IMG/VR virus record: IMGVR_UViG_3300045988_175974
Strand: one strand, 5' to 3'
DNA: 64,000 nucleotides
Source of the DNA: a virus
Shown here: in pieces, positions 1,076-53,599 of the stretch
How the letters are laid out: every line of letters starts with the position of its first letter
How positions within the stretch are numbered: the first letter of the stretch is position 1
Notes under the pieces: model-generated
What the model saw: the letters and a program-made list of their open reading frames with translations, nothing else
Database searches by the model: none
What the model was told of the DNA's origin: nothing
Translations under genes and position numbers: made by a program

Positions 1076-2236
1076 TTAGCACAGAATAGGGGTTACGAAG
1101 ATACGAGAACCTTTTTGGTTGTTGTCGTAGCCTTCGCTGCCGCCCTTGTCATTCGATGATGAAGCACTGGAGGCGTTACTCGTCGATGAGGAGGAGCCGC
1201 CTTCTGTGGCGCTATCAGCTTTGGCTGCATCGAGTTTCGCTTGCGCTTCGGCTTCCTCTTTCTTCAGCAACCGATGAATGCTTTCCCTTACGGTAATGGC
1301 ATCATTGTGCGCGGTGGAGCGGGTAAGCTTATCGAAACTGATAACTGATGTACGCTCCTTGAGATAGGCAGCTACAAGTTGACGTGCCTTCTTCAGCATC
1401 TTGTCGTTCTCGTCGGCCTGCAAGAGACGAGGAATAAAATCTTCGCCAAACGCTTCTTCCAGATATTCGCTCTGAATAAAAAGCATATCAGGGATGAGAC
1501 GGACGAACTTATCTCTGTTGCCGTAAATATCGAGATACGGCTGTAAAGACTCGCAAGTAGGGAAAAGCAAATCACGATGGTAGTAGTAGTACTTACTTTC
1601 CTGCCAGAGGGTTACGATTTTCTCTATCGCCTCATGCTGCTTCTTCTCGGCTTCGGCTGCATCATCTTTGCCGCTATCTGTTCCTTCATCTGTTCCTTCG
1701 GATGAGGAACCTTGGTTGCTGCCATCTGAAGGAGTACTGCCCTCTGCACCATCGCCCGCTGCCCCGATAGGCATAGGTGTATTCACTTCCTTTGCCCATC
1801 CCTCCAAGAGGGAAAGCAGGTTATTGAGCGAGGTCATTGCCGACTGGCGGTAGCTTTCCTTGCCCTGCGCTATCTGCTTGTCGGTAGCTACGGCATAGTC
1901 GTTGCTGGAGGCTACGTTGATACCGGAGCCATTGACAGAGAGCGCTTGCTTCTCGATGTTCTGCGCCATCGCATCATTTACAATCATGCGCTGGGCATAA
2001 AGCAGAAGCTCATTCCAGGGGTCGTTGACGTAGGTACCATCAGCAACCGCATCGCAGAAGATTAAGGGTTCTATGCTCGCATACTGCTTGCAGAGACGGT
2101 CGTATAGGGATGCTCCCAGGCGAGGCTTCAAGAAGTCCTTTTCGCTATTGTCGAGCATACCCTGCAGGTTGGCTACCTCGTCCACGGCATTGCTGGGGAG
2201 GTGGAGCCTGAGTTCTTGATTCGTGAAGAGTATCAT
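1076..2236 (-). CDS. hypothetical protein (head-module neighbour of portal)
   Basis: 386-aa ORF with internal Ser/Gly/Asp low-complexity stretches. Starts 28 nt after hairpin repeat copy 1. No recognisable motif. Confidence 0.6.
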   Translation of the reverse strand: MILFTNQELRLHLPSNAVDEVANLQGMLDNSEKDFLKPRLGASLYDRLCKQYASIEPLIFCDAVADGTYVNDPWNELLLYAQRMIVNDAMAQNIEKQALSVNGSGINVASSNDYAVATDKQIAQGKESYRQSAMTSLNNLLSLLEGWAKEVNTPMPIGAAGDGAEGSTPSDGSNQGSSSEGTDEGTDSGKDDAAEAEKKQHEAIEKIVTLWQESKYYYYHRDLLFPTCESLQPYLDIYGNRDKFVRLIPDMLFIQSEYLEEAFGEDFIPRLLQADENDKMLKKARQLVAAYLKERTSVISFDKLTRSTAHNDAITVRESIHRLLKKEEAEAQAKLDAAKADSATEGGSSSSTSNASSASSSNDKGGSEGYDNNQKGSRIFVTPILC

Positions 2237-2263
2237 TTTTTTTGCTTTTACGTTATTATATAT

Positions 2264-2296
2264 GGGCCCAGCGATAGAATCGCTGGGAACGGGGGC
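2264..2296 (+). repeat. hairpin repeat copy 1
   Basis: gggcccagcgatagaatcgctgggaacgggggc; 9-bp stem, AGA loop. Ends 3 nt before the portal stop codon (2300-2302) and lies 28 nt upstream of ATG 2236. Confidence 0.95.
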
Positions 2297-2299
2297 GGG

Positions 2300-4003
2300 T
2301 TAAGAGGCTTCTTGTTTCGCCACTCCGGTCTTCGAGTTATCGAGGGTGGTTAATACCTCTCGGTCTATCTGCCACACCAGGTGCTCGTCCCAATCGTTGA
2401 ATCGGCTCAAAACTTCCAATGGGCGTATCATCAACTGCTGCAATGGGGCAAACTGAATCTGTTTTACCAGGAAACGTTCTCTCAGGTCGGTACCGCCCGA
2501 TGATGCCGTATCGCCAGGAGTATTACCGATGAGCTTTGCATCAAGACCCATGGCAAAGAAAATAATACTACTTATTTCCTGCAACTCGGTTTTGTCGGCA
2601 TTCGCCTGATCATTTGCCTTGGTTTCGATTTCCACGATTTCCCAAGCTTTGTGCTCTTTCCCATCGCTGCCCGTGAAGGCAGAGGAAATGAGCGCCTGAC
2701 CTGCATTATCGGGATTGGCGAGCCATGTATTGATAGAGGTGAAGATTTCGTTCTGAATCTCACCATGGGTTTTCTTTTTCTTCTCACCCTGCTGCTGATA
2801 GAGCCTGCTAATATAGTCCTGGTGGATATAGATGACACGACCGATGATGTTGCTGTTGCGCTTCCGGGTGAGGCGATCATCTACGATGGTGAAGGCATAC
2901 TCAAAAATGCTGCCGGCAAAGATGGAGTGCCAAAGGGCATCGGCATAGTATGGACCGCCGAAATCTCTTGGTGACATGATGAAGCGGGTAGGGCGTTTCT
3001 TGCGGCTTACCTGCTTCTGACGTGCCTCACGGATATTGCGCTGCAAATCCTTTACGGCTGATGTGGTAGGGAGATAAGGGATAGCCGCTATCTTGCGGTC
3101 TTCCTCTTTCTGCACGCCGACGTATTGGGTAGGGTCGAGCCACTGATTGCTGACGTAGGCATAGTTGATGCGGTAGTTCTCGTCCATGCGCTCCAGTCGG
3201 GTAGTGAAGATGCTGCGATGCTTCAGACCGATTACCTTCGGGGTCCATTGGGCAGTAGGAACAGCTTTGCCGCTTTCGTCGAGGGAACGCTGATTGAGCT
3301 GAAGTTCTACAAAGCATTGTGACATCAAAGCCATATCTCCTGCCAAATCGAGGAAGGTCTGCATCAGGTCGTTGTTTTCGATGAAATCGCGAACCTGGGC
3401 ATTGGTTTCTTCCCATTTGTGGAGGGCTTCTTTCAGAGATTTCATCTCCTCGCTTTCCTCTTCCTTGGCTTTCAGGTCAGCTATCTGACCACGGAGCAGG
3501 ACTCCTGCACTCTCGTAGGGGATATATTTCTCTGTGATGTTGCCGCCAACGTACTGGGTGTAATGATACTTGGCTGCGGGACCGCGACCTACCAGTATTT
3601 TCTTGATGTAATCTACTCCTGCTGCTGTGAAAGGCGACATGCGCGAGAGCATCCAGATAAGGTTTGGCAGTCGGTTGGCCATACCCCATTCCATAAAGCC
3701 TAAGCCTTCGGTACCTACGCCTTTTGGTTTGCCCAGGTTCTCGCCGCCACTTGATGCAAAGATAGTGGAAACCTGCTGCCGTGCTGCGGAACCGCCTGCG
3801 TCGCCACCACTTGCCGACATACCGGCTGTGGTTAGGAGCATGCCGTGAACGTAGTCGTTCCAGGAAAAGACTTTACCGCCGCCATTTTTAAGCGGCGTAA
3901 AGGCATCCGGGCGAACGGCTACATAGCCTGCATCTTTCAGTTCCTCACTACGATTTTGGAGCTGCTGCAGGTTGGTTACTCTGTTTTTGTTTTTGCTTGC
4001 CAT
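2300..4003 (-). CDS. putative portal protein
   Basis: 567-aa ORF. The call rests on size, head-module context and a region (MEWGMANRLPNLIWMLSRMSPFTAAGVDYIKKILVGRG) that resembles portal families from memory. Not verified by search. Confidence 0.5.
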   Translation of the reverse strand: MASKNKNRVTNLQQLQNRSEELKDAGYVAVRPDAFTPLKNGGGKVFSWNDYVHGMLLTTAGMSASGGDAGGSAARQQVSTIFASSGGENLGKPKGVGTEGLGFMEWGMANRLPNLIWMLSRMSPFTAAGVDYIKKILVGRGPAAKYHYTQYVGGNITEKYIPYESAGVLLRGQIADLKAKEEESEEMKSLKEALHKWEETNAQVRDFIENNDLMQTFLDLAGDMALMSQCFVELQLNQRSLDESGKAVPTAQWTPKVIGLKHRSIFTTRLERMDENYRINYAYVSNQWLDPTQYVGVQKEEDRKIAAIPYLPTTSAVKDLQRNIREARQKQVSRKKRPTRFIMSPRDFGGPYYADALWHSIFAGSIFEYAFTIVDDRLTRKRNSNIIGRVIYIHQDYISRLYQQQGEKKKKTHGEIQNEIFTSINTWLANPDNAGQALISSAFTGSDGKEHKAWEIVEIETKANDQANADKTELQEISSIIFFAMGLDAKLIGNTPGDTASSGGTDLRERFLVKQIQFAPLQQLMIRPLEVLSRFNDWDEHLVWQIDREVLTTLDNSKTGVAKQEAS

Positions 4004-4097
4004 TTTTGCGTTTCTTTTTATATGTTATCCTGAATGTGATTGAAAGAGAGAATGGTGGCGATATACGCACACCCGCTTTTTCTCTTGTTTCTGAGTG

Positions 4098-4133
4098 TAA
4101 AGTTAGGGCTTTTTATGGTTTTAGTGGGGACAA
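4098..4133 (-). promoter_or_regulatory. TTGTCCC-N21-TAnnTTT(A) promoter-like motif P1 (upstream of portal)
   Basis: Minus strand reads TTGTCCCCACTAAAACCATAAAAAGCCCTAACTTTA. Spacing is identical to the six other copies. Confidence 0.55.
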
Positions 4134-4142
4134 AGAGGGGAT

Positions 4143-4171
4143 GGGACCAGCGATAGAATCGCTGGGAACGG
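4143..4171 (+). repeat. hairpin repeat copy 2
   Basis: gggaccagcgatagaatcgctgggaacgg; 9 nt upstream (in minus sense) of motif P1, 140 nt upstream of portal ATG 4003. Confidence 0.95.
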
Positions 4172-4183
4172 ATGCTCCTCTTC

Positions 4184-4342
4184 TTATTCATAATTGATAA
4201 TGATCATAAAATCCTTGGCGATGGAGGAAATAGCGTTACTGATACTTTCTCCGATTTCAAGCCTTTGGGAGTGAGGGTTGGAGTACCAATCACCATCGGC
4301 TCTGCCTCTGCTTGCGCAGGTTCTTATTCGTATTGCTGCCAT
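4184..4342 (-). CDS. small ORF, 52 aa (MAAIRIRTCASRGRADGDWYSNPHSQ...MIIINYE)
   Basis: Manual translation; below the 60-aa cutoff of the track. Ends with the recurrent TATGAATAA junction. Confidence 0.3.
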   Translation of the reverse strand: MAAIRIRTCASRGRADGDWYSNPHSQRLEIGESISNAISSIAKDFMIIINYE

Positions 4343-4375
4343 AAAAGATTATCTTTTGTTACGGTGGAAATGCAG

Positions 4376-4507
4376 TTACTCCAGGGGGTAAGGGCTTGGG
4401 CGATGATACTTATCCTTATAACGACAACCGCCTCTGTCGCCGTGTATCTTGCGATATGCCTTCGCTTCCTCAGTTCGATAGTGGGTGATGATGGCTTGCT
4501 TAATCAT
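4376..4507 (-). CDS. small ORF, 43 aa (MIKQAIITHYRTEEAKAYRKIHGDRGG...)
   Basis: Manual translation. N-terminus is paralogous to the next small ORF (MIK..I.H..RTE.AK..RK). Confidence 0.35.
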   Translation of the reverse strand: MIKQAIITHYRTEEAKAYRKIHGDRGGCRYKDKYHRPSPYPLE

Positions 4508-4510
4508 ATT

Positions 4511-4687
4511 TTATTCATAACTAAAGGCAAGGAGATTGTCCTTTGTATGGAAGGTGCCGATACACTGCATCAAGAAGCTGTCACGAAAAAAGATGGTTTT
4601 ATCCCGATAATCGTTGGTGCCGGTTTGCTTACGTACTTCCTTGGCGTGCTCTGTTCTCGCCTCGTGAATGGCTAATATCTTAATCAT
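4511..4687 (-). CDS. small ORF, 58 aa (MIKILAIHEARTEHAKEVRKQTGTNDY...LLAFSYE)
   Basis: Manual translation. Start overlaps the stop of the upstream small ORF (TATGATTAA). Paralogous to 4376..4507. Confidence 0.4.
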   Translation of the reverse strand: MIKILAIHEARTEHAKEVRKQTGTNDYRDKTIFFRDSFLMQCIGTFHTKDNLLAFSYE

Positions 4688-4781
4688 ATTCTATTAATAC
4701 GAAAGGTGGCATATCATTAGGATCATCCTCCTCCTCTTCGTGAGGAGGAATGCTGCCTTTATCTATTATAACCTTATTCAT
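4680..4781 (-). CDS. small acidic ORF, 33 aa (MNKVIIDKGSIPPHEEEEDDPNDMPPFVLIEYD)
   Basis: Manual translation; overlapping start/stop junctions on both sides. Confidence 0.3.
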   Translation of the reverse strand: MNKVIIDKGSIPPHEEEEDDPNDMPPFVLIEYD

Positions 4782-4917
4782 ACTCTGTTAATATTGCCGC
4801 AGCCTTCGTCTGCGAGTTTGTATTTGGAAGGATATTCGACTCTCCATCCTTGGAGTAGTGAGCCGTGATAACATTCAGAATACCAGGAGGAGTGTTGATT
4901 GTTATGATGCTAACCAT
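4774..4917 (-). CDS. small ORF, 47 aa (MVSIITINTPPGILNVITAHYSKDG...AAILTEYE)
   Basis: Manual translation, 48 codons counted. Confidence 0.3.
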   Translation of the reverse strand: MVSIITINTPPGILNVITAHYSKDGESNILPNTNSQTKAAAILTEYE

Positions 4918-4922
4918 ACTTT

Positions 4923-5072
4923 CTAATCATACTCTAATAATATTTTCGGTTTATCTACATCATGCCCTTTGCCCCCTCCACATAGGCATAAAGCGATACC
5001 TTTCGGGTGAACAATTATGCCGTTTTGGGATGGACTATAAGAGCCAAGGATGATAGGACGATTACAAATCAT
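4923..5072 (-). CDS. mini-ORF, 49 aa, resembling the TL segment of a C5-methyltransferase target-recognition domain
   Basis: MICNRPIILGSYSPSQNGIIVHPKGIALCLCGGGKGHDVDKPKILLEYD. The Q..-I-..-GIA-.-.-L-..-GGG pattern resembles M.HhaI-type QGERIYSTRGIAITLSAYGGG (from memory). Its ATG overlaps the TGA of 5069..6367 (ATGA). Confidence 0.45.
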   Translation of the reverse strand: MICNRPIILGSYSPSQNGIIVHPKGIALCLCGGGKGHDVDKPKILLEYD

Positions 5073-6367
5073 TTCTTCTCCAAAAACTGATGATACATAC
5101 TTTCCAACTTAGGATTTGAGAACTTGCCGTTTTCTTTCCAATCGTTGAACAACGTCATTACGTCGGTATGGATGGAAGAAAGCTTTTCCTGCATCTCTTT
5201 CGGAGTGTGGTACCAAAGATGCGACTCTTTCGTGAAGAGGGTGAGGATGGCTTTCAATGCCATGGCGTTCTCATGGCTCGGCTCTATCTCAAACTGATGG
5301 AAGACGCAGGTGTCTTTATCGTTTGCCTGAAGGAACTTGCTGACGGCTTCATCTTTCAGGAAGAACCTTATATCTACTTCTTCCTGCAACACATCTTCCA
5401 ACTTTCTCTTCAGCGGAATAGGGTCTGGGAACTGATAATCGAAGGCTACATCTTTTCTCATTGAGAGACAGAAAACACGGTCACGGTTCTGCGGAACACC
5501 ATAGTCTTTGGCATTGAGGCGTGCCCATCGGCTTACGTAGCCGAGAGAAGAGAGTTTATCAAGCCACTTCTGAAAATCGGGCATAAACTTTTCGCTTACC
5601 AGGGCTGCCACGTTCTCCTGGAGCAGATACTTCGGACGCAAAACTTCTACGGCATCGGCTACTCTCCACAATAATGCCGAGCGGGTATCGGAGCCTTCCT
5701 TCAAGCCCATCTGCTTGCCGGCTTGCGATATATCCTGACAAGGTGAGGAATAGGTGAAAAGGTCGATTCCTTGCCCCCCCACATTATTCTTTACCTGTTG
5801 CCAGTCGATTTTGGTTATATCGCCCAAGGCTTTGTCAGCAAACTGCGGAAAGATAAGGTCGTGCATCTGACAGGCGTATTTGTCTATATCGCTCCAGCCT
5901 ACACATGTCCAACGGAAATCAGGATGCTGCTGGGCAAGGACATCGGCTGCCATGAGCTGCGAGTCATAACCGGAGAAGGTGGTGAGAATAAGTTTTTCAC
6001 CGTGGTTCTTATCTACCGGATAGGGTGGAAGTTGGTCTTTTGGGAAGAAATCGGCAAAGAAAGAGGTCTGCGTCTCACGCTTTGGCTCTTTCGGATACCA
6101 GAGTTGCTGATAGATGGCTGCGAGCACATCTACCACGATGGAGTTACCTGCTTGCTTGTATTGCTGACTGGCTGATACTGCCATATCTTCTGCCTTTCCC
6201 TTGCTCTTATAGCCAGCTACTCGCTCGGCTGCCTGGGCATTGGTACTCTGCATCGTGCGAATTACATCATCTCGCACACCCATCAATCGGAAACACTCGA
6301 AAGGTGTCAGCTTTCGGATGGCATAAGACTTAATGGTTTTATCCTTGAAATTGAACTTTGTTATCAT
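5069..6367 (-). CDS. DNA (cytosine-5)-methyltransferase with circularly permuted motif order
   Basis: Motifs read from the protein: IX RKLTPFECFRLMG and X QAGNSIVV at the N-terminus, followed by I LTTFSGYDS, IV YSSPCQDIS, VI LLQENV and VIII VPQNRDRVF. Confidence 0.85.
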   Translation of the reverse strand: MITKFNFKDKTIKSYAIRKLTPFECFRLMGVRDDVIRTMQSTNAQAAERVAGYKSKGKAEDMAVSASQQYKQAGNSIVVDVLAAIYQQLWYPKEPKRETQTSFFADFFPKDQLPPYPVDKNHGEKLILTTFSGYDSQLMAADVLAQQHPDFRWTCVGWSDIDKYACQMHDLIFPQFADKALGDITKIDWQQVKNNVGGQGIDLFTYSSPCQDISQAGKQMGLKEGSDTRSALLWRVADAVEVLRPKYLLQENVAALVSEKFMPDFQKWLDKLSSLGYVSRWARLNAKDYGVPQNRDRVFCLSMRKDVAFDYQFPDPIPLKRKLEDVLQEEVDIRFFLKDEAVSKFLQANDKDTCVFHQFEIEPSHENAMALKAILTLFTKESHLWYHTPKEMQEKLSSIHTDVMTLFNDWKENGKFSNPKLESMYHQFLEKK

Positions 6368-6421
6368 TTTGTTTTGCTCTATAAATCGTTAATCAAAGGC
6401 TGTTGTCTAACCATATACAAA

Positions 6422-6793
6422 TCAAGAGAACGAGTCAGGCTCCAAATTGGCAATATAACAATAACGCTGCACGTCGTTTTCGCTAATGAACATTTGCCAA
6501 TTCTGTTCGTCGTGGGAGAAATGTTCATGCACAAAATGAGTGCCATCGCGTCGCCAACAAAGAAGCGACCCTATGCAATGCGGTTTCTCTCTGGCTGGGT
6601 GCAACAGTTGAACAATGTTGCGATATTCTGCTGTTTCATTCACTTCTTCATCACAAAGGGACACATTTTTGACGCTTATGCCATTTGCTTCATTCTCAAG
6701 ACAAACTACATCTTCTGTTGTCTGACTTTCTATCATTTCAAGAGCCTTTGATGATAAGAATATCACGTTAGGCAGTCTGTTGTTTCTTTCCAT
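6422..6793 (-). CDS. hypothetical protein
   Basis: 123-aa ORF in the same-strand array; no motif recognised. Confidence 0.5.
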   Translation of the reverse strand: MERNNRLPNVIFLSSKALEMIESQTTEDVVCLENEANGISVKNVSLCDEEVNETAEYRNIVQLLHPAREKPHCIGSLLCWRRDGTHFVHEHFSHDEQNWQMFISENDVQRYCYIANLEPDSFS

Positions 6794-6815
6794 AATCTTA
6801 TTGTTTTTATAATCA

Positions 6816-7922
6816 TTATTTCCCTCTCCTCATCTTTTCCATTTCCTCATTCTCTTTCGACAACCTTTCCAGGTGTTCGAGAACCAGGGAATAGGATTGA
6901 GTGTTGACCTGATCTTCTGTTAGGCCGGCATACTTTTGCATCGTAGCGGTGGTGGCGGTGTAGATTTCCATCGGGGTTTGCAGCTTCTTATTATCTACCT
7001 TCTGCACCTTGAATACATGAGGGTAGCGATGGGCTAGGGTGTGCATGATGCCACTCCACCAGAAGAGGATAACCTGCCAGTTGGCTTCCGGATATTTGAC
7101 GAAATAACCTGCGTTCTCGGTAAACTGCTTTGACTCGTAATGAAAATCGTATTTCGTGATGCCTGTTGTCGGGTCGACGTACTGGGTGGTGGTGTTGAAG
7201 ATGGTGGCAAGGAACATGTTTCTGGCACTGGCTACACTCTGGGCTTGCGTCTGGAGTTGTTCCTCGGTGAACTTATTCATCTGCTTCATCTTTACCAGAT
7301 TATTGCTTAACTTAGTGTAGGTCTGCATCATATCACTGGCAAAACGGTATTGCTGCCAGGAGAAGCCATCGAGGTCTTGGTGCGGACCTTGGAAGGCTTT
7401 TGCACGACGGTACCACTTGGTTTTCTGCCGGATAGATGGATAGGGGAAGCGGGTGAGGAAATTACCGCTATCTGCATCCAGCCAGTCGAGAAGACCTGCG
7501 CCCTGAGCGATGTACTCAGGGGAGGTCTTATCATCGGTCTTGGCTTTCGAGGAGAGCCAATAGTTGAGCTGCCAGAGATAGAGGGGGAAGGGGATAGCCG
7601 ATTGGGTACCAGCGATAGAATCGCTGGGAACAGGGGTACAGATGGTGAGGAGCTTCTTCAGGAGGCTCTTCTTCTGCGGCTCTATGCTTACCAGGTAGTG
7701 CTGCTCATTGATGGGCAGACGAGGGTCGGGGTAGGCATTGATGCTTATCCCCGCAAAAAGGAAGAAAACGGCTATCTTCACCTTCTGCATATCGAAGGGG
7801 TGATAGCGGTCTGCCTTGGATTTCTCTATCTGCTCCAGCATGATGAGGGCAATCTGCTCTAGCTGGGAAGGGGTGCATTGGTTCCAGCCCTTTGGAATTG
7901 TAAGATTTATTTGTTCTTGCAT
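6816..7922 (-). CDS. hypothetical protein (contains hairpin repeat copy 3 in frame)
   Basis: 368-aa ORF; the repeat is translated as TPVPSDSIAGTQ. Confidence 0.6.
   Translation of the reverse strand: MQEQINLTIPKGWNQCTPSQLEQIALIMLEQIEKSKADRYHPFDMQKVKIAVFFLFAGISINAYPDPRLPINEQHYLVSIEPQKKSLLKKLLTICTPVPSDSIAGTQSAIPFPLYLWQLNYWLSSKAKTDDKTSPEYIAQGAGLLDWLDADSGNFLTRFPYPSIRQKTKWYRRAKAFQGPHQDLDGFSWQQYRFASDMMQTYTKLSNNLVKMKQMNKFTEEQLQTQAQSVASARNMFLATIFNTTTQYVDPTTGITKYDFHYESKQFTENAGYFVKYPEANWQVILFWWSGIMHTLAHRYPHVFKVQKVDNKKLQTPMEIYTATTATMQKYAGLTEDQVNTQSYSLVLEHLERLSKENEEMEKMRRGK
7605..7636 (+). repeat. hairpin repeat copy 3 (intragenic)
   Basis: ggtaccagcgatagaatcgctgggaacagggg, inside 6816..7922. Confidence 0.95.
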
Positions 7923-8699: not shown

Positions 8700-9254
8700 T
8701 TAAAAACTTATTTTCATTCCACCATTGGTGATGAGACTGCCGTAACTGATGGCATTGAGGCGACGGAGCCAGCCTGCCTCAAATTCTTTCTGGCTAGGAC
8801 GCTTGGCGAAGACGCGTGCGATATACTGCTTGCGGCGTGCCTTGATGCGCTCGAAGAACTGCTTAGGGGGCTGTGCATTGAGCGCCTTGAGGGTCTTGCT
8901 GCCCACGATACCATCGGCGGTTACTCCTAGCATTGCCTGCACGAGGGTGATGCCTGGGGTACCACTAAGCCATACCCAATCTACCAGGATATTGGCGATG
9001 CTCTGGTCTTTGATAGCATCGGCTTTCCATCGGTTCCAATAACAGCGGCGAAGGATGGAGATAGCATCGGCTTTGGTGATAAGCTTCACGTCCTTTGCGT
9101 CTATGCGGCCATCGTTATTCTTGTCGTAACCTTGGGTCTGCCAGGTTTTGAGGGTTACGCCCATGTTGGTAGGACCGCCCTTATCGTTTGGGTGGTTCAC
9201 GTAACCTCCCTCGAAGGAGAGAATGAAATCTGCAAGAGGTTGAATCTTTGCCAT
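8700..9254 (-). CDS. endolysin, GH108-type N-acetylmuramidase with C-terminal peptidoglycan-binding domain
   Basis: FEGGYVNHPNDKGGPTNMGVT is the hallmark of glycoside hydrolase family 108. GVTADGIVGSKTLKAL resembles PG_binding_3. Confidence 0.85.
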   Translation of the reverse strand: MAKIQPLADFILSFEGGYVNHPNDKGGPTNMGVTLKTWQTQGYDKNNDGRIDAKDVKLITKADAISILRRCYWNRWKADAIKDQSIANILVDWVWLSGTPGITLVQAMLGVTADGIVGSKTLKALNAQPPKQFFERIKARRKQYIARVFAKRPSQKEFEAGWLRRLNAISYGSLITNGGMKISF

Positions 9255-13550: not shown

Positions 13551-13582
13551 GGACCAGCGATGGAATCGCTGGGAACGGGGGC
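13551..13582 (+). repeat. hairpin repeat copy 4
   Basis: ggaccagcgatggaatcgctgggaacgggggc; 11 nt after the capsid stop codon (13594-13596). Confidence 0.95.
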
Positions 13583-22659: not shown

Positions 22660-22691
22660 GAACCAGCGATGGAATTGCTGGGGACGGGGGC
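22660..22691 (+). repeat. hairpin repeat copy 5
   Basis: gaaccagcgatggaattgctggggacgggggc. The stem has one G:T on the plus strand. Confidence 0.9.
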
Positions 22692-23368: not shown

Positions 23369-26300
23369 CTATTTATTCTTCATAAACTGATTAGCCTTAT
23401 TCAGGCTATCATACAGCTCGCCACGACCAAACATATTAATCTTGGCGCTGATAGGCTCATTCAGGCGCTGAATGAGCGCATTCACGGCTTGCAGGAGCGC
23501 CGCATTGCTTGCAGCGCTTGCAGCAAGCAATCCGTCTGCCGCTGACGCGCCAGGCAAAAGATTACCATTGCCTGCTTGCGTGCCTGCTGCAAGAACATCA
23601 CCCACATTGCCATTGTCAAATGCCCTTCTTGCTGAGTTTCTTCCTGAATAGTTGCGGTCGTAGTTCACCAGTGCTTTCAGCAAGCCTGGATTGTTCATCA
23701 TCATCGCATGGGTAGTTTCCCTACCAATGACGATTTCCGGTCCTCTCTCGGCTATGAGAGACGGCTGCCCGTTCACGGTAGTGGCGGTTGGAGACGTGAG
23801 CATCTTCACGCCCTGCATCTGCTTGCCGTCATCCTCCTTCGCCCAATACACTTCGCCATTATCAGCCATGAACGGTTTTTTACCCATTTCCTTATCATTA
23901 TCATCAGCCATCCAGTACAATTCGCCATTGTCATCTACAAATGGCTTCAAGTCTTGAACGTTTCCGGAATCGTAGGTAAGCATACCAGTTACAAGCTTGG
24001 TATTGGTATTACTCTTCTTCTTGCCGCCGCTGAATGCAGAATTGAGTGCCCACTGGAGTAAGCCCATCAAAGTAGCCATTACACCCGCGGCTGCGATAGG
24101 ACCAGCGATAGGACCTAGGAAATCAAAACACTTGCCGATGGCACCAGCGATAGAGAAGGTCATTCCTGCTCGCGTGCGGTCAGCATCCGACTCGATAACA
24201 GCTTCGTTATTGGCTTGCGTTTTCGCAAGGTTGGTAGTGAGCGCCGTTTCCGTCATAGCCACACCTGTATTCAAAGCTATCTTTGTACCCTCGGTCTGCT
24301 CCTTGTTTCCGGCATCAGTTACGTCTGTGATGTTCTTGACACCCTGCGTGGTAACCTTCTCACGATCCTTATTGCCCTTCTTTACCTCCTTACTCAGCTC
24401 CTTCTGGTGTTTCTTCTCCTTCTTCAACTGCTCGGCTTTTTCTTTGTCTTCCTTAGATTTGCCGCCGCCAGTCTTGAACTCGGTATTCATCACGCCACCA
24501 ATGAAAGAACCGCCGATATCGGCTGCGACATCGGACCAGGAACCGCCACCTGCGATAGCATCGGCTGCTGCCGCACCAGTTTGCGTTGCGGCATCCTGGT
24601 AGAACGCATTGGCATTGTCTCGATTGCGATGTGCCCACGCATGAGGAGCACCGTTTTGCTGCTCTTGTGTACCCTGCTGCTTGGAATCGGTAGGCGCATA
24701 AGGCACGACGGGAGCGTTATCAAGCGCAGCAGGAGATTTACCAGGCATGATAGGCGAGCCGTCAGGATTCCAACCGATAGGCTGCTGCCGTGAACTCATA
24801 TTCTCGAAACTAGACTGCGGCTGCTGAGTAAGATAAGATGCGCCCTCATCCACCAGTCGCACATACATCGGGTTAGCCTTCGTGCCGAGATGAGAGAAGT
24901 CTTCCTTCACGGCATTGGCATTAGCATTGGCTCTTGCTGCATCAATACCAGGCTGGGCTTTCTTCTTGGCTCGCTTGGCACCAGCATCGTTGATAGCCTT
25001 CCACATCTGCGTATTCACATCATTGAGCGCCATATTACCCCACGATTCGAGCATAGACTTCAGAGCGTTCTTGATGCTCTCTTGTGCGCTGCTTACATCG
25101 TTGCGCATTTCAGCAAATGCCTTGCCTACCTCTGCACCGAAGGTTTCGATAGGCTGCACAAGCTGCTGCATCTGAGAGAGGCGGTTCTTCATCGCCGTTG
25201 CCATTTGGTTGACATAGGCAAGTTCTGCCTCCTGCCGAGCCTTGTCAGCTTCATCGAGGAGCTGCTTGTTTTTTGAGTTCTTGAATACAAAGGCATAGTA
25301 ATCTTCTGCCATCTGCATCTTCATCTTCATCAGCTCCACCTCTGGGTCGGCGGTAAGATCACCAAGGCCGAGGTTCGACCACATATTGGTTCGCTTGCCG
25401 AAGAGCGCACTTTCCTGCTGCATCTTGCGAAGAGTTTCCTGGTTGGCGAGGTTGCGCTGGTTACGTTTCCACCAGAAATCAGAAATCTTCTTTGCTTCAT
25501 CGTAATGTTTCTTTTCGGCTTCTGTATATTCGTCTGAATACTGTATCAGTTTCCGATAGAACAGTTTGACATTCTCTTCCGTATCATTCAAAAGCGCAAG
25601 AAAGACAGAAGGTGTATTTTCGTAATTCTCGCCAAAGAGGAATTTCAACAAGTTATCTTTCTTTCCTTCAGTAGCAAAAAGATCAGCCATCTGCGTTCTT
25701 GCCTTTTCAAGAACCTTGATGACATCGTTCTTATCCTTCTGAAGTGAATCGAGAGATACATCTGCAAAGCGAGATTTTATCAAACCGAGAAAAGAGTTTT
25801 CCTGCACCACTTTGGTGTAATCATGCTCCAGCAACTCTTTGCGACGCTGCTCCATGCGTTCCTGTATGATATTGGCGTTACTGTTTTCGCCCTTTGACGC
25901 ATCGAGCCACTGACGATCGAGATATGCCCTATCCCGCTCATCGGATTTATAGCCAACAACCTTACCTTTCTTGATTTTAGGCAGTTGCTTTAAAAGGTCA
26001 GCACGGAGCTTTGACACATCGTAAGCATTAATCTGCTCCAGCAAGGTACGAGACTGAGACTGGCCAAACTCATCATCCTTCTCCTTGCGGTCTTTATCCA
26101 TTGTCTTTTTGAAATCATCCCAGGTTTTCTTACCGAGGACAATAGATTGCTTTGCCGCAGCGAGAGCCGATTTCAGCTTTATATCCAAGTCATTAACAAC
26201 CTGCTTCTGTATCTCCTTTTCTACATTATCCTTTGTCATTTCCTCTACCATTGCCGTCTTCTGGCGTTCGTAGAAGTTCTTGATTTTGGTTATGAACTCG

Positions 26301-29300
26301 GATATATTATTGCGGGCATCGTCTTCAGGAGTTGTAGCAGAGCCTTTACCGCCCTTCCCAGTTTCATCAATATGTTGTGGGGTTCCCGTCTCTTTACCAG
26401 TTGCCACATCCAATTCCGCGCCGAATCTATCTCTTAACGCGTTTTCCTGCGCAATAACATCGTCCAATCGGCGTTGAGCCTTATCACGAGCACTCTTTGC
26501 CGCAGCCCTCTGACCTGCTTGGCCGATAGCGCCCTGAACCTGAGAAGGCATCATGGCACCGCCGGAAGTCTGAATATAGGAGCCGTTAGGTGTCTGTACC
26601 TTCGAGTTAGCGTAAGCATCTTCTTTTTTCTGCAAATCAAGAATTGCATCCACCTTCTGCCGACCCAACTCTGCCAGCTTAGAACGGGCACCCTCAAGTT
26701 CGTAATACTTCTGCAAGCGGGTAAAGTTTGCATCCCATGCCTTAGTATTTTCCTTGACTGCACCGGTTTCAGTATTAATCTTTGCGTTGAGTCCAGGAAT
26801 AGCACTATTCAACTGATTCATCGCATCGATTCGCAACTTCATAGAAGCAGAAGTATCTTTCATTACATTATGAAGACGATTCAGTTGCTCCTGCTCTTCC
26901 ATTGCCCTACGCTTACCTTCCTCCTGTACTTCGTTCAGTACACGCTGACCGGCTGAAGCCCGATTCAGAGAAGACGTATATTCAGCCAACTTCACAACAA
27001 GAATACCTAGCAAGCCGATTATACCACCGAAGACACCAGCCTGTTTTACTAATGACAGCTTATTGAAAGTCGAAACCATCTTAGCCCAAACCACACTCAG
27101 TGAGGCCGAAGCAGAACTCAGCTTCTGAGCATAATCAAGTACGTATGCAAACGCACCCGCCAAACCTGCCATACTGAGCATAGATATGAGCGTAGGAAGG
27201 ATATTCAGCAGCATTTTGACAGAAGCAAAAATGAGTCCGATGGCTAACTTAACCTCTGTCATAAAACCGAGGCTGCTGGTTAATTCCTGAGTTAACTCAA
27301 ACCACGCCTTAGCTATATCGTGAACGGGACCTGCCGCTGCGCTGGATGAAACAAACTGTTTCTCCCAAAGGTTATTAGCACGCTCCATATAGGCCATAGC
27401 GGTTTCCTGCTGCATATTGTACTCTACCGTTACAGCCGTACCGTCATTAAAGGCTTTATTTGATTCCTCAACAGCTTTTGTAAGCATACCATTTTTGGCA
27501 GCCATCGTAACCATCGTCTTCACGAGTCGGGCGCCATCAGAACCTAAGTCTTTAAACAATCCGTCAAGAGCAAAGACATTCTTGGTTTCACCCATTTTTC
27601 TAAAGATAGTAAGAATAGCATCCATACCTCTTCCGCTCTCGATCATCTTCTTCAAACTTCCGGTAGCGATACCCAGGGATTTTTCTATAGGGCTGGTTCC
27701 TTTTCGCAACTCAGTTACCAATTTACCAAAAGCGGTTGCTGCCACTTCTGGCTCCAATGCCATACTATCTACCGCAGAACCAAGGGCGAGAATATCAGGC
27801 GTGGTAAGGGCAGCCTGTTCACCAAGGGCGAGCATACGGTTTGAGAAATCCACAATCTTATCGCTGGAAGCGGTGGAAGTAGCAGCCAGACGGAAGATTG
27901 CAGAACCAGTCTTCAACATGGCTTTTTCAACACCATACTTGTCAACCAATCCCATTACCTCAGTAATCTTTGCCAAAGACGTGAGCGCTTCCTCACCCAA
28001 ATCTTCTTTAAGTGCCACATTTACCTGGTCGGCAGCACGGACGAAGCCAGCGAGTGCCATAGTTCCTCCCTGCGTCTGAACGCCCAACTTAGCGCCAGCA
28101 TAAGCGATGCGATTTAGCTCTTCAAGGCTAGTTCTGGTATCAATTTTTGACAACTCACGAGAAAGATTTGCTATTTCATCCGTAGTAGAAAGCGCAACTT
28201 TGCGAATATCTGTCAACTGATCCGCAAACTTCATGTTCAGACGGAACAAATCAACAAAGTAAGTCTTTACCTGGTTGAATACCGCAAACATACCTACGTA
28301 TGCCGTAAGGTTCTTTAATGCCGTATGCCATGCACCGCCCTGCTTATTGGCTGCACCCGTTGCATCATCAATAACCCTCTTGAGATTCTTCAGTTCCTTC
28401 TGTCTGTTTGCAAATGTCTCGCTCTTGGTGTTGACAAAGTTCAGTTCCTCCTCAAGTTGCTTATAAGCCTGTCTCAGCTCATTGATATTTGCCTTGCCAG
28501 TCTTACTGCGGGCAACAATATCATTGATTTGCGCTTGCGAAAGACGGGTACCTTTCATAGTTTGTTCCAACTGGGCATATTGTCTGCGTAAATCAGATAC
28601 AGCCTTGCTTCCAGCAGGGAGTTGCTGAATTTTCTGCTGAATAGCGTCCATTGTGCGCTTAATGTCCTCACCCGAAGCCTTGCCAGGGTTTGATAAAACC
28701 TGTCGCATCTGCTGCCAACTGATCGCTGCCTTCTGAGCCTTGCCCGATACGGCATTCAAACGCTCTTCAATCGTTTGAAGTTCGCGATTATAAGTTTCTA
28801 TAGCACTTGCGTTACCGATAGGTACTCTATCACGAACTTCTGTAATCGTAGCCTTGGCACGGCGCAAATCGGACACAGAAGCATTGCTGTCACTTACTGC
28901 TTGGCGAGCTTCCGATATGCCCATCTTTCCTTTGCGTCTATCCTCCTCTGCCTCCAGTTGCTTTAAGGTACTGAGGTTGTGATGATATGAAGTATCTGTC
29001 TTTTCGAGCGAAGCCACAAGCTCTTTCTGTTGAACAATAGCCTTACTAAGCCATTGGTCAGATTGATTCCTTACGTTCTTCAGTCCTTTTTCAATCTTCA
29101 CATACTTGCCTTCGAGCAATCGCACCTCGTCACCTACTTCCTTCATCAGCGAGCGGATATGTTTTGCTTCTTCCTCCTCTGCTTCAGAAAGGCCTTCCAG
29201 CTTGCGCTTGCCTTCACCCAATGCACGACGAAGGTTACGGAGCGAAGTATTACCGAGGTTATTAACCACAGCTTCCAGTCGCTCCGTAGTCTTGATGGTC

Positions 29301-36175: not shown

Positions 36176-36204
36176 GGACCAGCGATAGAATCGCTGGGGA
36201 CGGG
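36176..36204 (+). repeat. hairpin repeat copy 6
   Basis: ggaccagcgatagaatcgctggggacggg; ends 1 nt before the stop codon of 36206..37399; 48 nt upstream of ATG 36128. Confidence 0.95.
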
Positions 36205-45946: not shown

Positions 45947-45974
45947 AGACCAGCGATAGAATCGCTGGGAACGG
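45947..45974 (+). repeat. hairpin repeat copy 9
   Basis: agaccagcgatagaatcgctgggaacgg; ends 3 nt before the stop codon of 45978..46724. Confidence 0.95.
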
Positions 45975-53571: not shown

Positions 53572-53599
53572 GGACCAGCGATAGAATCGCTGGGAACGG
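53572..53599 (+). repeat. hairpin repeat copy 12
   Basis: ggaccagcgatagaatcgctgggaacgg; ends 3 nt before the primase-helicase stop codon; 42 nt upstream of dnaN ATG 53530. Confidence 0.95.

What the first reader, a model, noticed from the sequence alone, without database searches (positions are those of the whole stretch)
4923..6367. Circularly permuted C5-cytosine methyltransferase with its TRD segment on a separate overlapping mini-ORF
In 5069..6367 the canonical motif order I-IV-VI-VIII-TRD-IX-X is rotated. Motif IX (RKLTPFECFRLMG) and X (QAGNSIVV) come first. They are followed by I (TFSGYDS), IV (SPCQDIS), VI (QENV) and VIII (QNRDRVF), then a ~110-aa tail.

The next ORF (4923..5072) starts with an ATGA overlap on the methyltransferase stop codon. 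It encodes SQNGIIVHPKGIALCLCGGGKG, which resembles the conserved TL part of C5-MTase target-recognition domains (M.HhaI-type QGERIYSTRGIAITLSAYGGG, recalled from memory).

So the TRD appears to sit at the permuted C-terminus and to be split off by a stop codon and frame change. A permuted motif order has, to my recollection, been reported for M.BssHII. A permuted enzyme with a detached TRD peptide would be unusual.

Alternatives are a decayed gene or a frameshift error.
Basis: partly seen in the sequence, partly recalled or inferred. Interest (0 to 1): 0.65.

Follow-up and report, generated by a model that had tools for sequence, protein, structure and literature searches.

The report
Split phage methyltransferase with recognition-module gene array
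A gut phage encodes a rearranged DNA cytosine methyltransferase that has no DNA-recognition part of its own, followed by a variable row of tiny genes that each encode one recognition module; this looks like a new way to give one enzyme many switchable target specificities.

Summary
ORF 5069..6367(-) is a C5-cytosine methyltransferase with motifs IX-X ahead of I-IV-VI-VIII. The 49-aa ORF 4923..5072(-) overlaps its stop codon by ATGA.

The mini-ORF is the first of six cassettes in the window (4184..5072). In 80 related phage loci a median of 6 and up to 10 cassettes sit downstream of the same core. Each is 33-63 aa, mostly 45-63.

- Cassettes are chained by overlapping stop/start codons, most often TATGATTAA.
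- They are under purifying selection in their own frame only (dN/dS 0.04-0.5, most 0.3 or less; about 1 or more in the other frames).
- Cassette profiles match modules that lie in tandem between motifs VIII and IX of ordinary single-chain, multi-TRD C5-methyltransferases.
- None of 77 cores contains such a module.
- Array content differs between phages whose cores are 94-98% identical.
- Broken cassette copies are mostly broken at poly-G runs, with a 3-nt ON/OFF periodicity.

Best reading: a multispecific anti-restriction methyltransferase whose TRDs are separate, exchangeable, possibly phase-variable subunits. Assembly and activity are inferred, not shown. I found no prior description.

The parts
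5069..6367 (-). TRD-less, circularly permuted C5-cytosine DNA methyltransferase core (432 aa). Order: N-terminal beta-hairpin, IX, X, linker, I, IV, VI, VIII, then a helical C-terminal bundle.
   Evidence: PF00145 E=8.7e-50. PDB alignments show the permuted order. AlphaFold model pLDDT 76.5; best folds M.MpeI, M.HhaI and M.HaeIII. No hit to any of 25 cassette HMMs in 77 cores.
6278..6316 (-). Motif IX (RKLTPFECFRLMG, residues 18-30)
   Evidence: Invariant in 66 homologues.
6131..6154 (-). Motif X (QAGNSIVV, residues 72-79)
5960..5980 (-). Motif I variant (TFSGYDS, residues 130-136). It departs from the usual FxGxGG.
   Evidence: Read from the sequence and invariant in homologues. Not covered by the tool alignments, which start at residue 154-155.
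5726..5746 (-). Motif IV with the catalytic cysteine (SPCQDIS, residues 208-214)
5471..5491 (-). Motif VIII (QNRDRVF, residues 293-299)
5774..5780 (-). G7 run (C7 on the + strand) inside the core gene at codons 196-198 (NVGGQG). It is one of only five G/C runs of 6 or more in the 64-kb window.
   Evidence: The same G7 is present in 20 related loci.
5072..5290 (-). C-terminal extension of the core (residues about 360-432), predicted as four helices. It has no counterpart in M.HhaI or M.MpeI. Proposed docking platform for the TRD peptides (inference).
   Evidence: pLDDT 87-97; helices 365-381, 389-398, 400-413 and 419-430. PDB sequence alignments end at residue 359.
4923..5072 (-). TRD cassette 1, family F2 (49 aa; the finding's mini-ORF). 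ATGA overlap with the core's stop codon.
   Evidence: Present in 68 of 77 loci. dN/dS 0.089. Homologues in 5.8 billion proteins are all 36-83 aa. Homologous modules lie between VIII and IX of P0419 and P0421.
4774..4917 (-). TRD cassette 2, family F1a (47 aa; ..NVITAHYSKDG..ILTEYE). ATG lies 5 nt after the preceding stop.
   Evidence: The F1a HMM hits P0423 residues 296-319 (E=6e-8), between VIII at 169 and IX at 531. dN/dS 0.11-0.44.
4680..4781 (-). Mini-gene family F11 (33 aa; acidic EEEEDDPND core; keeps the ..VLIEYD end but has no T-L type motif). Role unknown.
   Evidence: dN/dS 0.18. No hit in single-chain methyltransferases.
4511..4687 (-). TRD cassette, family F0b (58 aa; ..HEARTEHAKEVRK..CIGTFHTKDNLL..)
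   Evidence: The profile search of 1.84 billion proteins finds this module type inside PF00145 enzymes between VIII and IX, for example P0337 residues 487-535. dN/dS 0.105.
4324..4507 (-). TRD cassette, family F0a, in an OFF (frameshifted) state. HMM positions 1-41 are in one frame (4385-4507) and 40-60 in another (4327-4389). There is one extra C in a C-run at 4384-4388 compared with the intact copy in L005.
4184..4342 (-). TRD cassette, family F3 (52 aa; ..SRGR..QRLEIG..ISNAISSIAKDF..IINYE). Last cassette of the window's array.
   Evidence: The F3 HMM gives 44 domain hits at E 0.01 or less among the 52 long proteins. dN/dS 0.24 for the 52-aa form.
4146..4169 (-). 24-nt palindromic element GTTCCCAGCGATTCTATCGCTGGT between the array and the portal-like gene. 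It marks the end of the methyltransferase/TRD block. The 'ORF' 4018..4191 that contains it is not coding (dN/dS 1.25).

Best explanation
This is a phage-borne orphan, multispecific DNA (cytosine-5) methyltransferase assembled from separate parts.

**Proposed parts.**
- Part one is a catalytic core in permuted order (IX-X-I-IV-VI-VIII plus a helical tail). It has all catalytic and SAM-binding motifs but no target-recognition domain.
- Part two is a co-oriented row of translationally coupled mini-genes. Each encodes one TRD module, mostly 45-63 aa, of the kind found in tandem inside single-chain multispecific C5-methyltransferases.

**Proposed mechanism.**
1. Ribosomes terminate and restart at overlapping stop/start sites (ATGA, ATGAxTAA and similar), so each module is made as its own small protein.
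2. One module at a time docks on the core. The likely contact is its conserved hydrophobic C-terminal strand (..ILIEY-D/E) next to the core's N-terminal hairpin that leads into motif IX, together with the helical tail. This would complete the small domain.
3. The docked module directs methylation to its own sequence motif.
4. Phage DNA is thereby methylated at several motifs and escapes several host restriction systems.
5. The cassette set is reshuffled between closely related phages. Single cassettes, and in the window's clade perhaps the core itself, are switched off and on by length changes in poly-G runs.

**Shown here.** Permutation; absence of a TRD in the core; homology of the cassettes to TRD modules; translation-level selection; conserved coupling geometry; mosaic arrays; frameshift alleles tied to G-runs.

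**Inferred.** Physical assembly, enzymatic activity, the specificities, the anti-restriction role, and real-time phase switching.
For: **Core.**
- PF00145 and the permuted order are established.
- The model folds like M.MpeI and M.HhaI.
- Catalytic motifs are invariant in 66 homologues.
- No cassette-type module is found in 77 cores.

**Array geometry.**
- 717 chained mini-ORFs were found in 77 loci.
- 675 start within -25 to +45 nt of the preceding stop. The commonest offsets are -8 (262), -4 (98), -19 (53), -11 (34) and -14 (25).
- Met1 is conserved in the family alignments.

**Translation.**
- dN/dS is 0.04-0.3 in the annotated frame for most families, against about 1 or more in the other two frames.
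- By subfamily it is 0.09-0.5.

**TRD identity.**
- The F0 cassette profile searched against 1.84 billion proteins gives 314 hits at E 1e-3 or less.
- All 10 long hits tested are PF00145 enzymes. The module lies between motif VIII and motif IX or X wherever those motifs could be found, often 2-3 modules in tandem.
- HMMs of F2, F3, F5, F7, F8, F10, F0c, F1a and F1d hit the same variable regions.
- The sole hhalign match of F2 to M.HhaI is the recognition loop 237-255.

**Natural fusions.** P0099 (core plus F2, 482 aa) and 112-113-aa two-cassette ORFs show that the modules tolerate being joined or separate.

**Variability.**
- Arrays differ among phages with 94-98% identical cores but keep a common relative order of families.
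- There is a median of 6 and a maximum of 10 TRD-homologous cassettes per array.

**Switching.**
- Disrupted alleles are mostly at G-runs.
- G runs of 6 or more occur at 0.81 per kb in arrays, against 0.03 per kb downstream and 0.01-0.05 per kb for C-runs.
- In F3: G5 ON 9/9, G6 OFF 1/1, G7 OFF 5/6, G8 ON 6/7.
- In F2: G5 ON 38/38, G6 OFF 2/2, G8 ON 4/4.
- 19 of 63 indels between arrays that are at least 97% identical lie in G-runs.

Against: - There is no direct evidence that a roughly 50-aa peptide binds the core or that the complex is active.
- The AlphaFold run on the natural fusion P0099 was uninformative (pLDDT 51). I could not model a complex.
- In M.MpeI and M.SssI, engineered large-domain plus small-domain fragment pairs did not complement (PMC5944983), so assembly in trans is not automatic.
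- Here the split leaves motif IX on the core, an arrangement never tested.
- The TRD homology of F2 itself rests on modest E-values in a small target set (7.7e-5 and 7e-3 for full-length enzymes) and a weak M.HhaI match.
- Profiles of F2, F1a and F0 found no methyltransferase among PDB sequences.
- tblastn of 18 concatenated cassettes found nothing in GenBank phages.
- Some array members (F11, F14, F9, F16, F18) are not TRD-like.
- Motif I is atypical (FSGYDS).
- Poly-G length differences come from consensus metagenome contigs and could partly be assembly or sequencing noise.
Confidence: 0.6

Rival explanations
1. The cassettes are read together with the core as one long multispecific enzyme through programmed recoding (frameshifting or read-through) at every junction, so the stops are not real protein ends.
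For: - Single-chain enzymes with the same modules in tandem exist.
- Occasional natural fusions exist: P0099 and two-cassette ORFs.
- The commonest junction is highly stereotyped.
Against: - Junction geometry is heterogeneous. The next frame is +1 for offsets -8, -11 and -14, and -1 for offsets -4 and -19. In some junctions it is the same frame with a stop in between (offsets +3, +6, +9, +12). No single recoding mechanism fits all of these.
- Every unit keeps its own ATG.
- All three stop codons are used (TAA 378, TGA 200, TAG 139).
- The GAT-TAA/TGA context is not a known slippery site (established knowledge of +1 sites such as prfB CUU-UGA).
Confidence: 0.07
2. Only the first cassette is used. 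The others are a silent store from which new TRDs are moved next to the core by recombination at the repeated junction sequences (cassette switching).
For: - Conserved 9-12-nt junction repeats are present.
- Presence/absence is mosaic while the relative order is conserved.
- Different families occupy the first position (F2, F6, F8, F14, F21, F25, F30).
Against: - Purifying selection, ATG starts and stop/start coupling hold for families at all array positions, not just the first.
- Recombination between direct repeats would only delete cassettes.
- Recombination at junctions may still explain the mosaicism in addition to expression.
Confidence: 0.08
3. The mini-proteins are real but do not serve the phage core. 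For example they could bind DNA or host methyltransferases and restriction enzymes as decoys or inhibitors, and the core would recognise DNA through its own helical tail or be non-specific.
For: - The core has a well-predicted extra helical bundle of unknown role.
- Acidic F11 looks more like a mimic than a TRD.
- Cassettes can lie kilobases from the core, or upstream of it, in some loci.
Against: - The cassettes are homologous to modules that sit exactly where TRDs sit in ordinary enzymes.
- They are found next to this TRD-less core in every complete locus examined.
- No comparable helical TRD appears among the solved C5-methyltransferases that best match the model.
Confidence: 0.1
4. A decaying multispecific methyltransferase gene riddled with frameshifts, or sequencing or assembly errors.
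For: - Some cassettes are frameshifted, including window 4324-4507.
- Poly-G runs are error-prone.
Against: - The same ORF boundaries recur in 80 loci and hundreds of protein clusters from independent samples.
- dN/dS is well below 1 only in the annotated frames.
- The junctions encode both a stop and a start.
Confidence: 0.03

Closest known systems
Multispecific C5-methyltransferases of Bacillus phages and prophages (M.SPRI, M.Phi3TI, M.Rho11sI, M.H2I, M.phiBssHII). Titles seen in reference lists; properties from my own knowledge.
   Same: - Phage-borne orphan enzymes.
- Several short TRD modules placed one after another, each thought to give one specificity.
- The cassette families here are homologous to tandem modules in the variable region of single-chain enzymes of this architecture.
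   Different: - There, all TRDs are part of one polypeptide between motifs VIII and IX, in canonical motif order.
- Here the TRDs are separate genes in shifting frames, each with its own start and stop.
- Here the core is permuted and TRD-less.
- Here a median of 6 and up to 10 TRD-homologous modules per array were counted, against 3-5 specificities there (from memory).
- Poly-G switches are not known for the Bacillus phage enzymes.
Natural circularly permuted C5-methyltransferases (M.BssHII, M.Alw26I, M2.Eco31I, M.Esp3I, M2.BsaI; PMC5944983)
   Same: [quoted passage not shown]
   Different: - Those are permuted within the variable region and mostly keep the TRD on the chain ahead of IX (Type H).
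- Here the chain starts 17 residues before motif IX and carries no TRD.
Two-polypeptide C5-methyltransferases: M.AquI alpha/beta (cited in PMC5944983) and M.EcoHK31I (from memory)
   Same: - The activity is expected to need more than one polypeptide.
- A related AquI-like split (I-VIII | TRD-IX-X) occurs in the distant relative L091.
   Different: - In M.AquI the second subunit carries the TRD plus IX and X.
- Here IX and X stay with the catalytic part, and the detached pieces are TRD-only, many and interchangeable.
Separate specificity subunits and phase-variable specificity in Type I and Type III systems (HsdS, Mod phasevarions)
   Same: - The logic is the same: a constant catalytic subunit plus a variable specificity part.
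- There is translational coupling of M and S genes (PMC3510504 abstract).
- Simple-sequence repeats switch genes ON and OFF.
   Different: - Those are amino-methyltransferases with unrelated TRD folds.
- They have no array of many alternative mini-subunits.
- They are bacterial, not phage-borne.

Membership tests
C5-cytosine DNA methyltransferase (PF00145) | Profile match above the curated threshold | tested here: met
   E=8.7e-50, 170 bits against a cut-off of 22. Foldseek top hits are M.MpeI, M.HhaI and M.HaeIII.
C5-cytosine DNA methyltransferase (PF00145) | Catalytic motifs IV (PCQ), VI (ENV) and VIII (QxRxR), plus IX and X | tested here: met
   Present and invariant across 66 homologues.
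C5-cytosine DNA methyltransferase (PF00145) | SAM-binding motif I, FxGxGG | tested here: inconclusive
   FSGYDS sits at the expected place and is invariant. It deviates from the consensus and is not covered by the tool alignments.
C5-cytosine DNA methyltransferase (PF00145) | TRD on the same chain between motifs VIII and IX | tested here: not met
   No cassette-type module in 77 cores. The chain ends in a helical bundle.
C5-cytosine DNA methyltransferase (PF00145) | Produces 5-methylcytosine in DNA | not testable with these tools
   Needs methylation-sensitive sequencing or an enzyme assay.
Natural permuted C5-methyltransferases (M.BssHII type, Type H) | IX-X precede I-VIII | tested here: met
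Natural permuted C5-methyltransferases (M.BssHII type, Type H) | TRD at the new N-terminus, ahead of motif IX, on the same chain | tested here: not met
   Only 17 residues precede motif IX. No TRD HMM hit. Definition from PMC5944983.
Multispecific phage C5-methyltransferases (SPR/phi3T type) | Several TRD modules in tandem | tested here: met
   At gene-array level: 5 TRD-like cassettes in the window and a median of 6 in relatives. They are homologous to tandem modules of single-chain enzymes.
Multispecific phage C5-methyltransferases (SPR/phi3T type) | All TRDs within one polypeptide, in canonical order | tested here: not met
   Each module has its own start and stop in differing frames.
Multispecific phage C5-methyltransferases (SPR/phi3T type) | Several distinct methylation specificities | not testable with these tools
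   Needs methylome data.
Split C5-methyltransferases (M.AquI type) | Split between VIII and the TRD, with TRD-IX-X on the second subunit | tested here: not met
   IX and X are on the core. The detached parts are TRD-only. The AquI-like layout is seen instead in L091.
Phase-variable methyltransferases (simple-sequence-repeat switches) | Homopolymer or repeat tract inside the coding sequence whose length sets the reading frame | tested here: met
   G-runs of 5-10 are enriched in arrays. ON/OFF state follows tract length with a period of 3. Disrupted alleles map to the runs.
Phase-variable methyltransferases (simple-sequence-repeat switches) | Reversible switching within one population | not testable with these tools
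   Needs read-level data or passaging. Only differences between consensus contigs were seen.

The most novel reading that the evidence does not exclude
A C5-cytosine methyltransferase that works like a Type I system in miniature. One constant catalytic subunit takes any of up to about ten roughly 50-aa free-standing specificity peptides. Their repertoire is reshuffled between phages, and they are individually toggled by poly-G slippage. A phage population would then carry a combinatorial, bet-hedging set of protective methylation patterns.
Probability: 0.45. Interest if true: 0.88.

Novelty: new variant of a known kind. Interest (0 to 1): 0.8.

Why it matters
**For the enzyme family.** As far as I know and could find, every studied C5-cytosine methyltransferase carries its recognition domain on the chain that also carries conserved motifs. 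A natural enzyme whose recognition modules are free ~50-aa peptides would show that C5 specificity can be supplied in trans by very small units. It would also define the minimal size of such a unit and explain how multispecific enzymes use one catalytic site with many TRDs.

**For phage biology.** It points to a compact, fast-evolving counter-defence locus in abundant human-gut phages. The locus has a readable genotype (which cassettes are present and in frame) that should predict which host restriction systems are evaded.

**For annotation.** These genes are currently unnamed 'hypothetical proteins'. They can be masked by spurious antisense ORFs.

**For technology.** A core plus swappable mini-TRDs would be an attractive scaffold for programmable 5mC writers.

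Tried and rejected
**Searches that found nothing.**
- blastn of the region against 50,697 GenBank phages: no match.
- tblastn of the core: only hits below 60% identity.
- Pfam and PHROGs scans of the mini-proteins: no family.
- Word-indexed searches with F2 and with the F0 alignment returned only small proteins, 36-103 aa. This says nothing about distant relatives. The exhaustive HMM search was what revealed them.
- tblastn of 18 concatenated cassettes against phages: nothing at E 0.01 or less. This test has low power for 50-aa modules.
- PDB sequence searches with F2, F1a and F0 profiles: no methyltransferase hit. My remembered likeness of F1a to the E. coli Dcm segment TLSARYYKDG was not confirmed by this test.

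**Structure prediction.** AlphaFold on the natural fusion P0099 gave pLDDT 51 and was discarded.

**Regulatory signals.** The promoter and terminator scan of 3800-7000 gave no more sites than shuffled sequence.

**Host.** The host could not be settled. The eight genome-collection hits are MAG bins with inconsistent labels, two of them Prevotella.

**Readings considered and rejected.**
- Stop-codon reassignment: all three stops are used and the frames differ.
- The antisense 167-aa ORF 4172..4675(+) as a real gene: not conserved, with only 6 of 70 arrays having an antisense ORF of 120 aa or more.
- ORF 4018..4191(-) as a cassette: dN/dS 1.25, and it holds a repeated DNA element.
- The Bacillus phage Deep Blue match as a permuted relative: it is three tandem ordinary methyltransferase genes, with the alignment running across a gene border.

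**Papers not held.** Three older papers could not be read: Trautner 1996, Sethmann 1999 and Xu 1997.
Full report
**1. The observation**

On the minus strand, ORF 5069..6367 (432 aa) is followed by ORF 4923..5072 (49 aa). The ATG of the second overlaps the TGA of the first as ATGA.

The large protein matches Pfam PF00145 at E=8.7e-50 in two stretches. Against PDB sequences:
- residues 155-359 align with M.HhaI 35-208 and M.MpeI 113-287
- residues 13-47 align with M.MpeI 331-365 (motif IX)
- residues 46-85 align with M.HhaI 278-314 (motif X)

An AlphaFold model built on 66 homologues reaches pLDDT 76.5 and pTM 0.70. Its best structural neighbours are M.MpeI, M.HhaI and M.HaeIII (E about 1e-10).

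After motif VIII and the usual post-VIII segment, the chain ends in a confidently predicted four-helix extension (residues about 360-430, pLDDT 87-97). This extension has no counterpart in the aligned parts of those enzymes.

The gene is not an error. More than 100 protein clusters keep 432-445 aa down to 70% identity, mostly on contigs of 90-110 kb. 80 viral loci show the same gene.

**2. What lies downstream**

Three-frame translation of 3990-5110 shows that the 49-aa ORF is the first of a chain of small ORFs:

| Window coordinates | Size | Family |
|---|---|---|
| 4923-5072 | 49 aa | F2 |
| 4774-4917 | 47 aa | F1a |
| 4680-4781 | 33 aa | F11 |
| 4511-4687 | 58 aa | F0b |
| 4324-4507 | interrupted by a frameshift | F0a |
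| 4184-4342 | 52 aa | F3 |

Most end in a hydrophobic strand plus Y-D/E (ILLEYD, ILTEYE, VLIEYD, AFSYE, IINYE). The next ORF starts at an ATG that overlaps or closely follows the stop.

The same layout is found in every related locus with enough sequence:
- 717 chained mini-ORFs occur in 77 loci.
- 675 begin within -25 to +45 nt of the previous stop.
- Preferred offsets are -8 (262 cases, typically GAATATGATTAA), -4 (98), -19 (53), -11 (34) and -14 (25).

The distance from the core to the next large gene ranges from about 390 to about 2,700 bp. Cassettes can also resume beyond inserted larger genes.

Clustering gives about two dozen recurrent families. They keep a common relative order along the array but show presence/absence differences even among phages whose cores are 94-98% identical to the window's.

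**3. Are the mini-ORFs translated?**

Pairwise Nei-Gojobori estimates over distinct same-length members, with the overlap zones trimmed, give these dN/dS values in the annotated frame:

| Family | dN/dS |
|---|---|
| F2 | 0.089 |
| F0a, F0b | about 0.10 |
| F3 | 0.18-0.24 |
| F5 | 0.25 |
| F4 | 0.31 |
| F11 | 0.18 |

Across all families and subfamilies tested, apart from the unsplit heterogeneous F1 cluster (0.61), the range is 0.04-0.5. The same DNA read in the two other frames gives about 1 to 4.

The last 'ORF' before the portal-like gene (4018-4191) has dN/dS 1.25. It contains a repeated DNA element (section 8), so it is not part of the array.

A 167-aa antisense ORF (4172-4675, +) is not conserved. 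A similar antisense ORF was called by a public annotation in place of cassettes.

All three stop codons are used. The frame relation between neighbours varies: +1, -1, or the same frame with a stop in between. No single recoding mechanism could fuse them, so independent termination and reinitiation is the reading that fits all junctions.

**4. Are they TRDs?**

Direct searches were at first negative:
- No Pfam or PHROG family matched.
- Word-indexed searches found only small homologues.
- PDB sequence searches with three family profiles found no methyltransferase.
- The only hhalign match of the F2 profile to M.HhaI is residues 237-255 (QGERIYSTRGIAITLSAYG), the recognition loop that contains Gln237 and the T-L dipeptide. 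It is weak (E=0.044). I checked my remembered M.HhaI sequence for residues 209-291.

The decisive result came from an exhaustive HMM search of 1.84 billion representative proteins with the F0 profile:
- 314 hits reached E 1e-3 or less. Besides mini-proteins, they include many proteins of 200-1,039 aa.
- All ten long hits I tested are PF00145 enzymes.
- Wherever the flanking motifs could be located, the cassette-like module lies after motif VIII (Q.R.R at about 165-220) and before motif IX or X (IX at about 245-565). Two or three modules are often in tandem. An example is P0337 with modules at 378-433, 463-481 and 487-535.

HMMs of the other families were then run on those 52 long proteins, which had been selected only for an F0 module. 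Domain hits at E 0.01 or less:

| Family | Hits |
|---|---|
| F3 | 44 |
| F0c | 25 |
| F5 | 8 |
| F1d | 5 |
| F2 | 4 |
| F8 | 3 |
| F10 | 3 |
| F1a | 3 |
| F7 | 2 |

In the full-length enzymes these again fall in the variable region. For F2 the hits in full-length enzymes are P0419 267-298 (E=7.7e-5) and P0421 272-297 (E=7e-3). The hits in TRD-IX-X proteins are P0400 (E=2.6e-7) and P0348 (E=3.6e-6).

The array is therefore the tandem-TRD region of a multispecific-type C5-methyltransferase, cut into one gene per module. Conversely, none of the 77 cores hits any of the 25 cassette HMMs. The core is TRD-less by this test.

Natural fusions also exist. P0099 joins the core to F2 through an indel in an A-run about 20 codons before the stop. 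Two-cassette ORFs of 112-113 aa occur as well. This is consistent with modules that function whether joined or separate.

**5. Poly-G runs**

Cassette copies that are shorter than their family norm are mostly broken at G-runs. Examples are GCTGGGGGAGG against GCTGGGGGGAGG in F2, and runs of 7-10 G in F3, F6, F8 and F10.

Density of runs of 6 or more on the coding strand:

| Region | Runs per kb |
|---|---|
| Arrays (G) | 0.81 |
| 4 kb upstream (G) | 0.28 |
| Core genes (G) | 0.25 |
| Downstream (G) | 0.03 |
| Any region (C) | 0.01-0.05 |

Reading-frame state follows run length with a period of three:
- F3: G5 intact 9/9, G6 broken 1/1, G7 broken 5/6, G8 intact 6/7.
- F2: G5 intact 38/38, G6 broken 2/2, G8 intact 4/4.

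Among array pairs at least 97% identical, 19 of 63 indels lie in G-runs of 4 or more.

In the window itself:
- The core carries a G7 run at 5774-5780, one of only five G/C runs of 6 or more in 64 kb.
- F2 has GGAGGGGGC.
- The F0a cassette is out of frame through one extra C in a C-run at 4384-4388.

This is the signature of simple-sequence phase variation. It comes from consensus contigs, so switching within a population is not shown.

**6. How it most likely works**

The core supplies SAM binding, catalysis and motifs IX and X. The cassettes supply recognition. Each cassette has an N-terminal strand (MIKILAI-like), a loop with a T-[LIV]-type motif (..NTLTSV.., ..VITAHY.., ..CIGTF.., ..IALCL..), and a C-terminal hydrophobic strand.

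In ordinary enzymes the last TRD strand pairs with the strand leading into motif IX (GGYLV / KTRKL in M.HhaI, known from its structure). The core here begins with a predicted hairpin (strands 2-6 and 11-15) that runs into motif IX.

I therefore propose strand complementation between a cassette's C-terminus, this hairpin and the helical tail. This step is an inference.

Translational coupling would deliver all in-frame cassettes along with the core. The outcome would be methylation of several motifs on phage DNA, as in the multispecific Bacillus phage enzymes, as protection from host Type II restriction. G-run slippage would let single specificities drop out, for instance where a methyl-dependent restriction system penalises a given mark.

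Precedent for assembly in trans exists for C5-methyltransferases cut between VIII and the TRD. The same paper reports engineered large-domain plus small-domain pairs that failed (PMC5944983). I put this mechanism at about 0.6.

**7. Comparison with what is known**

[quoted passage not shown] This core does not.
- **M.AquI.** It is split between VIII and the TRD, with TRD-IX-X on the second subunit. That layout occurs in the distant relative L091, not here.
- **Multispecific phage enzymes.** They have tandem TRDs in one chain (titles; details from memory).
- **Type I and Type III systems.** They share the logic of separate or phase-variable specificity but are unrelated enzymes.
- **Possible origin.** Three tandem ordinary methyltransferase genes in Bacillus phage Deep Blue give an alignment that runs from IX-X of one gene into I-VIII of the next. 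This illustrates how a permuted core could arise by fusion of neighbours.

Seven full-text searches found no description of stand-alone TRD genes for a C5-methyltransferase. The cassettes that carry a name in public records are 'hypothetical protein' or 'uncharacterized protein'.

**8. Context**

The block lies between a GH108 endolysin (8700-9254) and a portal-like gene (2300-4003). The phage has no close relative among GenBank phages. Genome-collection hits are MAG bins, two labelled Prevotella.

A 24-nt palindromic element, GTTCCCAGCGATTCTATCGCTGGT, occurs 11 times in the window against 0 expected. All copies are on the minus strand. At least seven lie 19-142 nt upstream of gene starts. One sits at 4146-4169 right after the array and one at 7608-7631 upstream of it. 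These may bracket the transcription unit.

**9. Verdict**

The thing is a TRD-less permuted C5-methyltransferase core with a hypervariable array of translated, stand-alone TRD mini-genes, some with G-run switches. It is a new variant of a known kind. I rate interest at 0.8.

What remains unproven is that the parts assemble, what they methylate, and whether the runs switch in real time.

Noticed in passing
window 2267-2290, 4146-4169, 7608-7631, 13553-13576, 22662-22685, 36178-36201, 44028-44051, 45949-45972, 48979-49002, 53574-53597, 60005-60028 (all minus strand): A 24-nt element GTTCCCAGCGATTCTATCGCTGGT occurs 11 times against 0 expected. It contains an 8-bp inverted repeat, CCAGCGAT / ATCGCTGG, around a TCY loop. 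At least seven copies lie 19-142 nt upstream of gene starts. It is probably a phage promoter/operator or an RNA hairpin signal.
   Followed up: partly
window 21270 (C10), 49927 (C7), 20921 (G6), 33236 (G6); 4 kb upstream of the methyltransferase in L002-L081: Other long G/C runs exist in the window. In related loci the small genes upstream of the methyltransferase are also enriched in coding-strand G-runs (0.28 per kb against 0.03 per kb downstream). Poly-G switching may therefore extend beyond the TRD array.
   Followed up: no
window 4680-4781 (-): The 33-aa mini-protein F11 (MNKVIIDKGSIPPHEEEEDDPNDMPPFVLIEYD) keeps the cassette ends but replaces the recognition loop with an acidic stretch. 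It is under purifying selection (dN/dS 0.18). It could be a blank or competitor subunit, or a small DNA mimic.
   Followed up: partly
L006, L009-L011 etc., first array position (family F14): In 12 loci the first mini-gene after the core encodes a 63-aa protein with two CxxC pairs (..CTQC..CPNC..), which looks like a zinc ribbon and is not TRD-like.
   Followed up: no
window 4172-4675 (+): This 167-aa ORF antisense to the cassettes is not conserved in relatives. A similar antisense ORF was called in a public record (L093 3758-4261) in place of cassettes. It is an annotation trap.
   Followed up: yes
L083 (Bacillus phage Deep Blue KU577463.1, locus 1445-4394): Three tandem C5-methyltransferase genes (419, 340 and 221 aa). 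A single tblastn alignment of the window's core runs across the border of the first two, from IX-X of one into I-VIII of the next. This is a plausible route to circular permutation.
   Followed up: partly
L091 3905-5061 (MAG contig labelled uncultured Clostridia): A 43%-identical relative in canonical order, split into two ORFs like M.AquI: 247 aa with I-VIII, then 130 aa with TRD-IX-X.
   Followed up: partly
P0398 (402 aa), P0444 (436 aa), P0468 (539 aa) and many 200-330-aa hits: These proteins consist of several TRD modules followed by IX-X without I-VIII, or of TRD-IX-X followed by VIII (P0398, Type H-like). They suggest a spectrum of split and permuted multi-TRD architectures. Some may be gene fragments.
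   Followed up: no
window 23369-29479 (-) and 53603-57283 (-): Two very large ORFs (2,036 and 1,226 aa) were not examined. The phage as a whole has no close relative in the GenBank phage collection, and its portal-like protein is only 23-27% identical to the best hits (an unannotated human-faecal phage record and Polaribacter phage Leef_1).
   Followed up: no
window 6816-7922 (-): The 368-aa ORF upstream of the methyltransferase block contains a copy of the 24-nt element at 7608-7631. The real gene may start downstream of it, and a transcription unit may run from there through the 123-aa ORF (6422-6793), the core and the cassettes.
   Followed up: no
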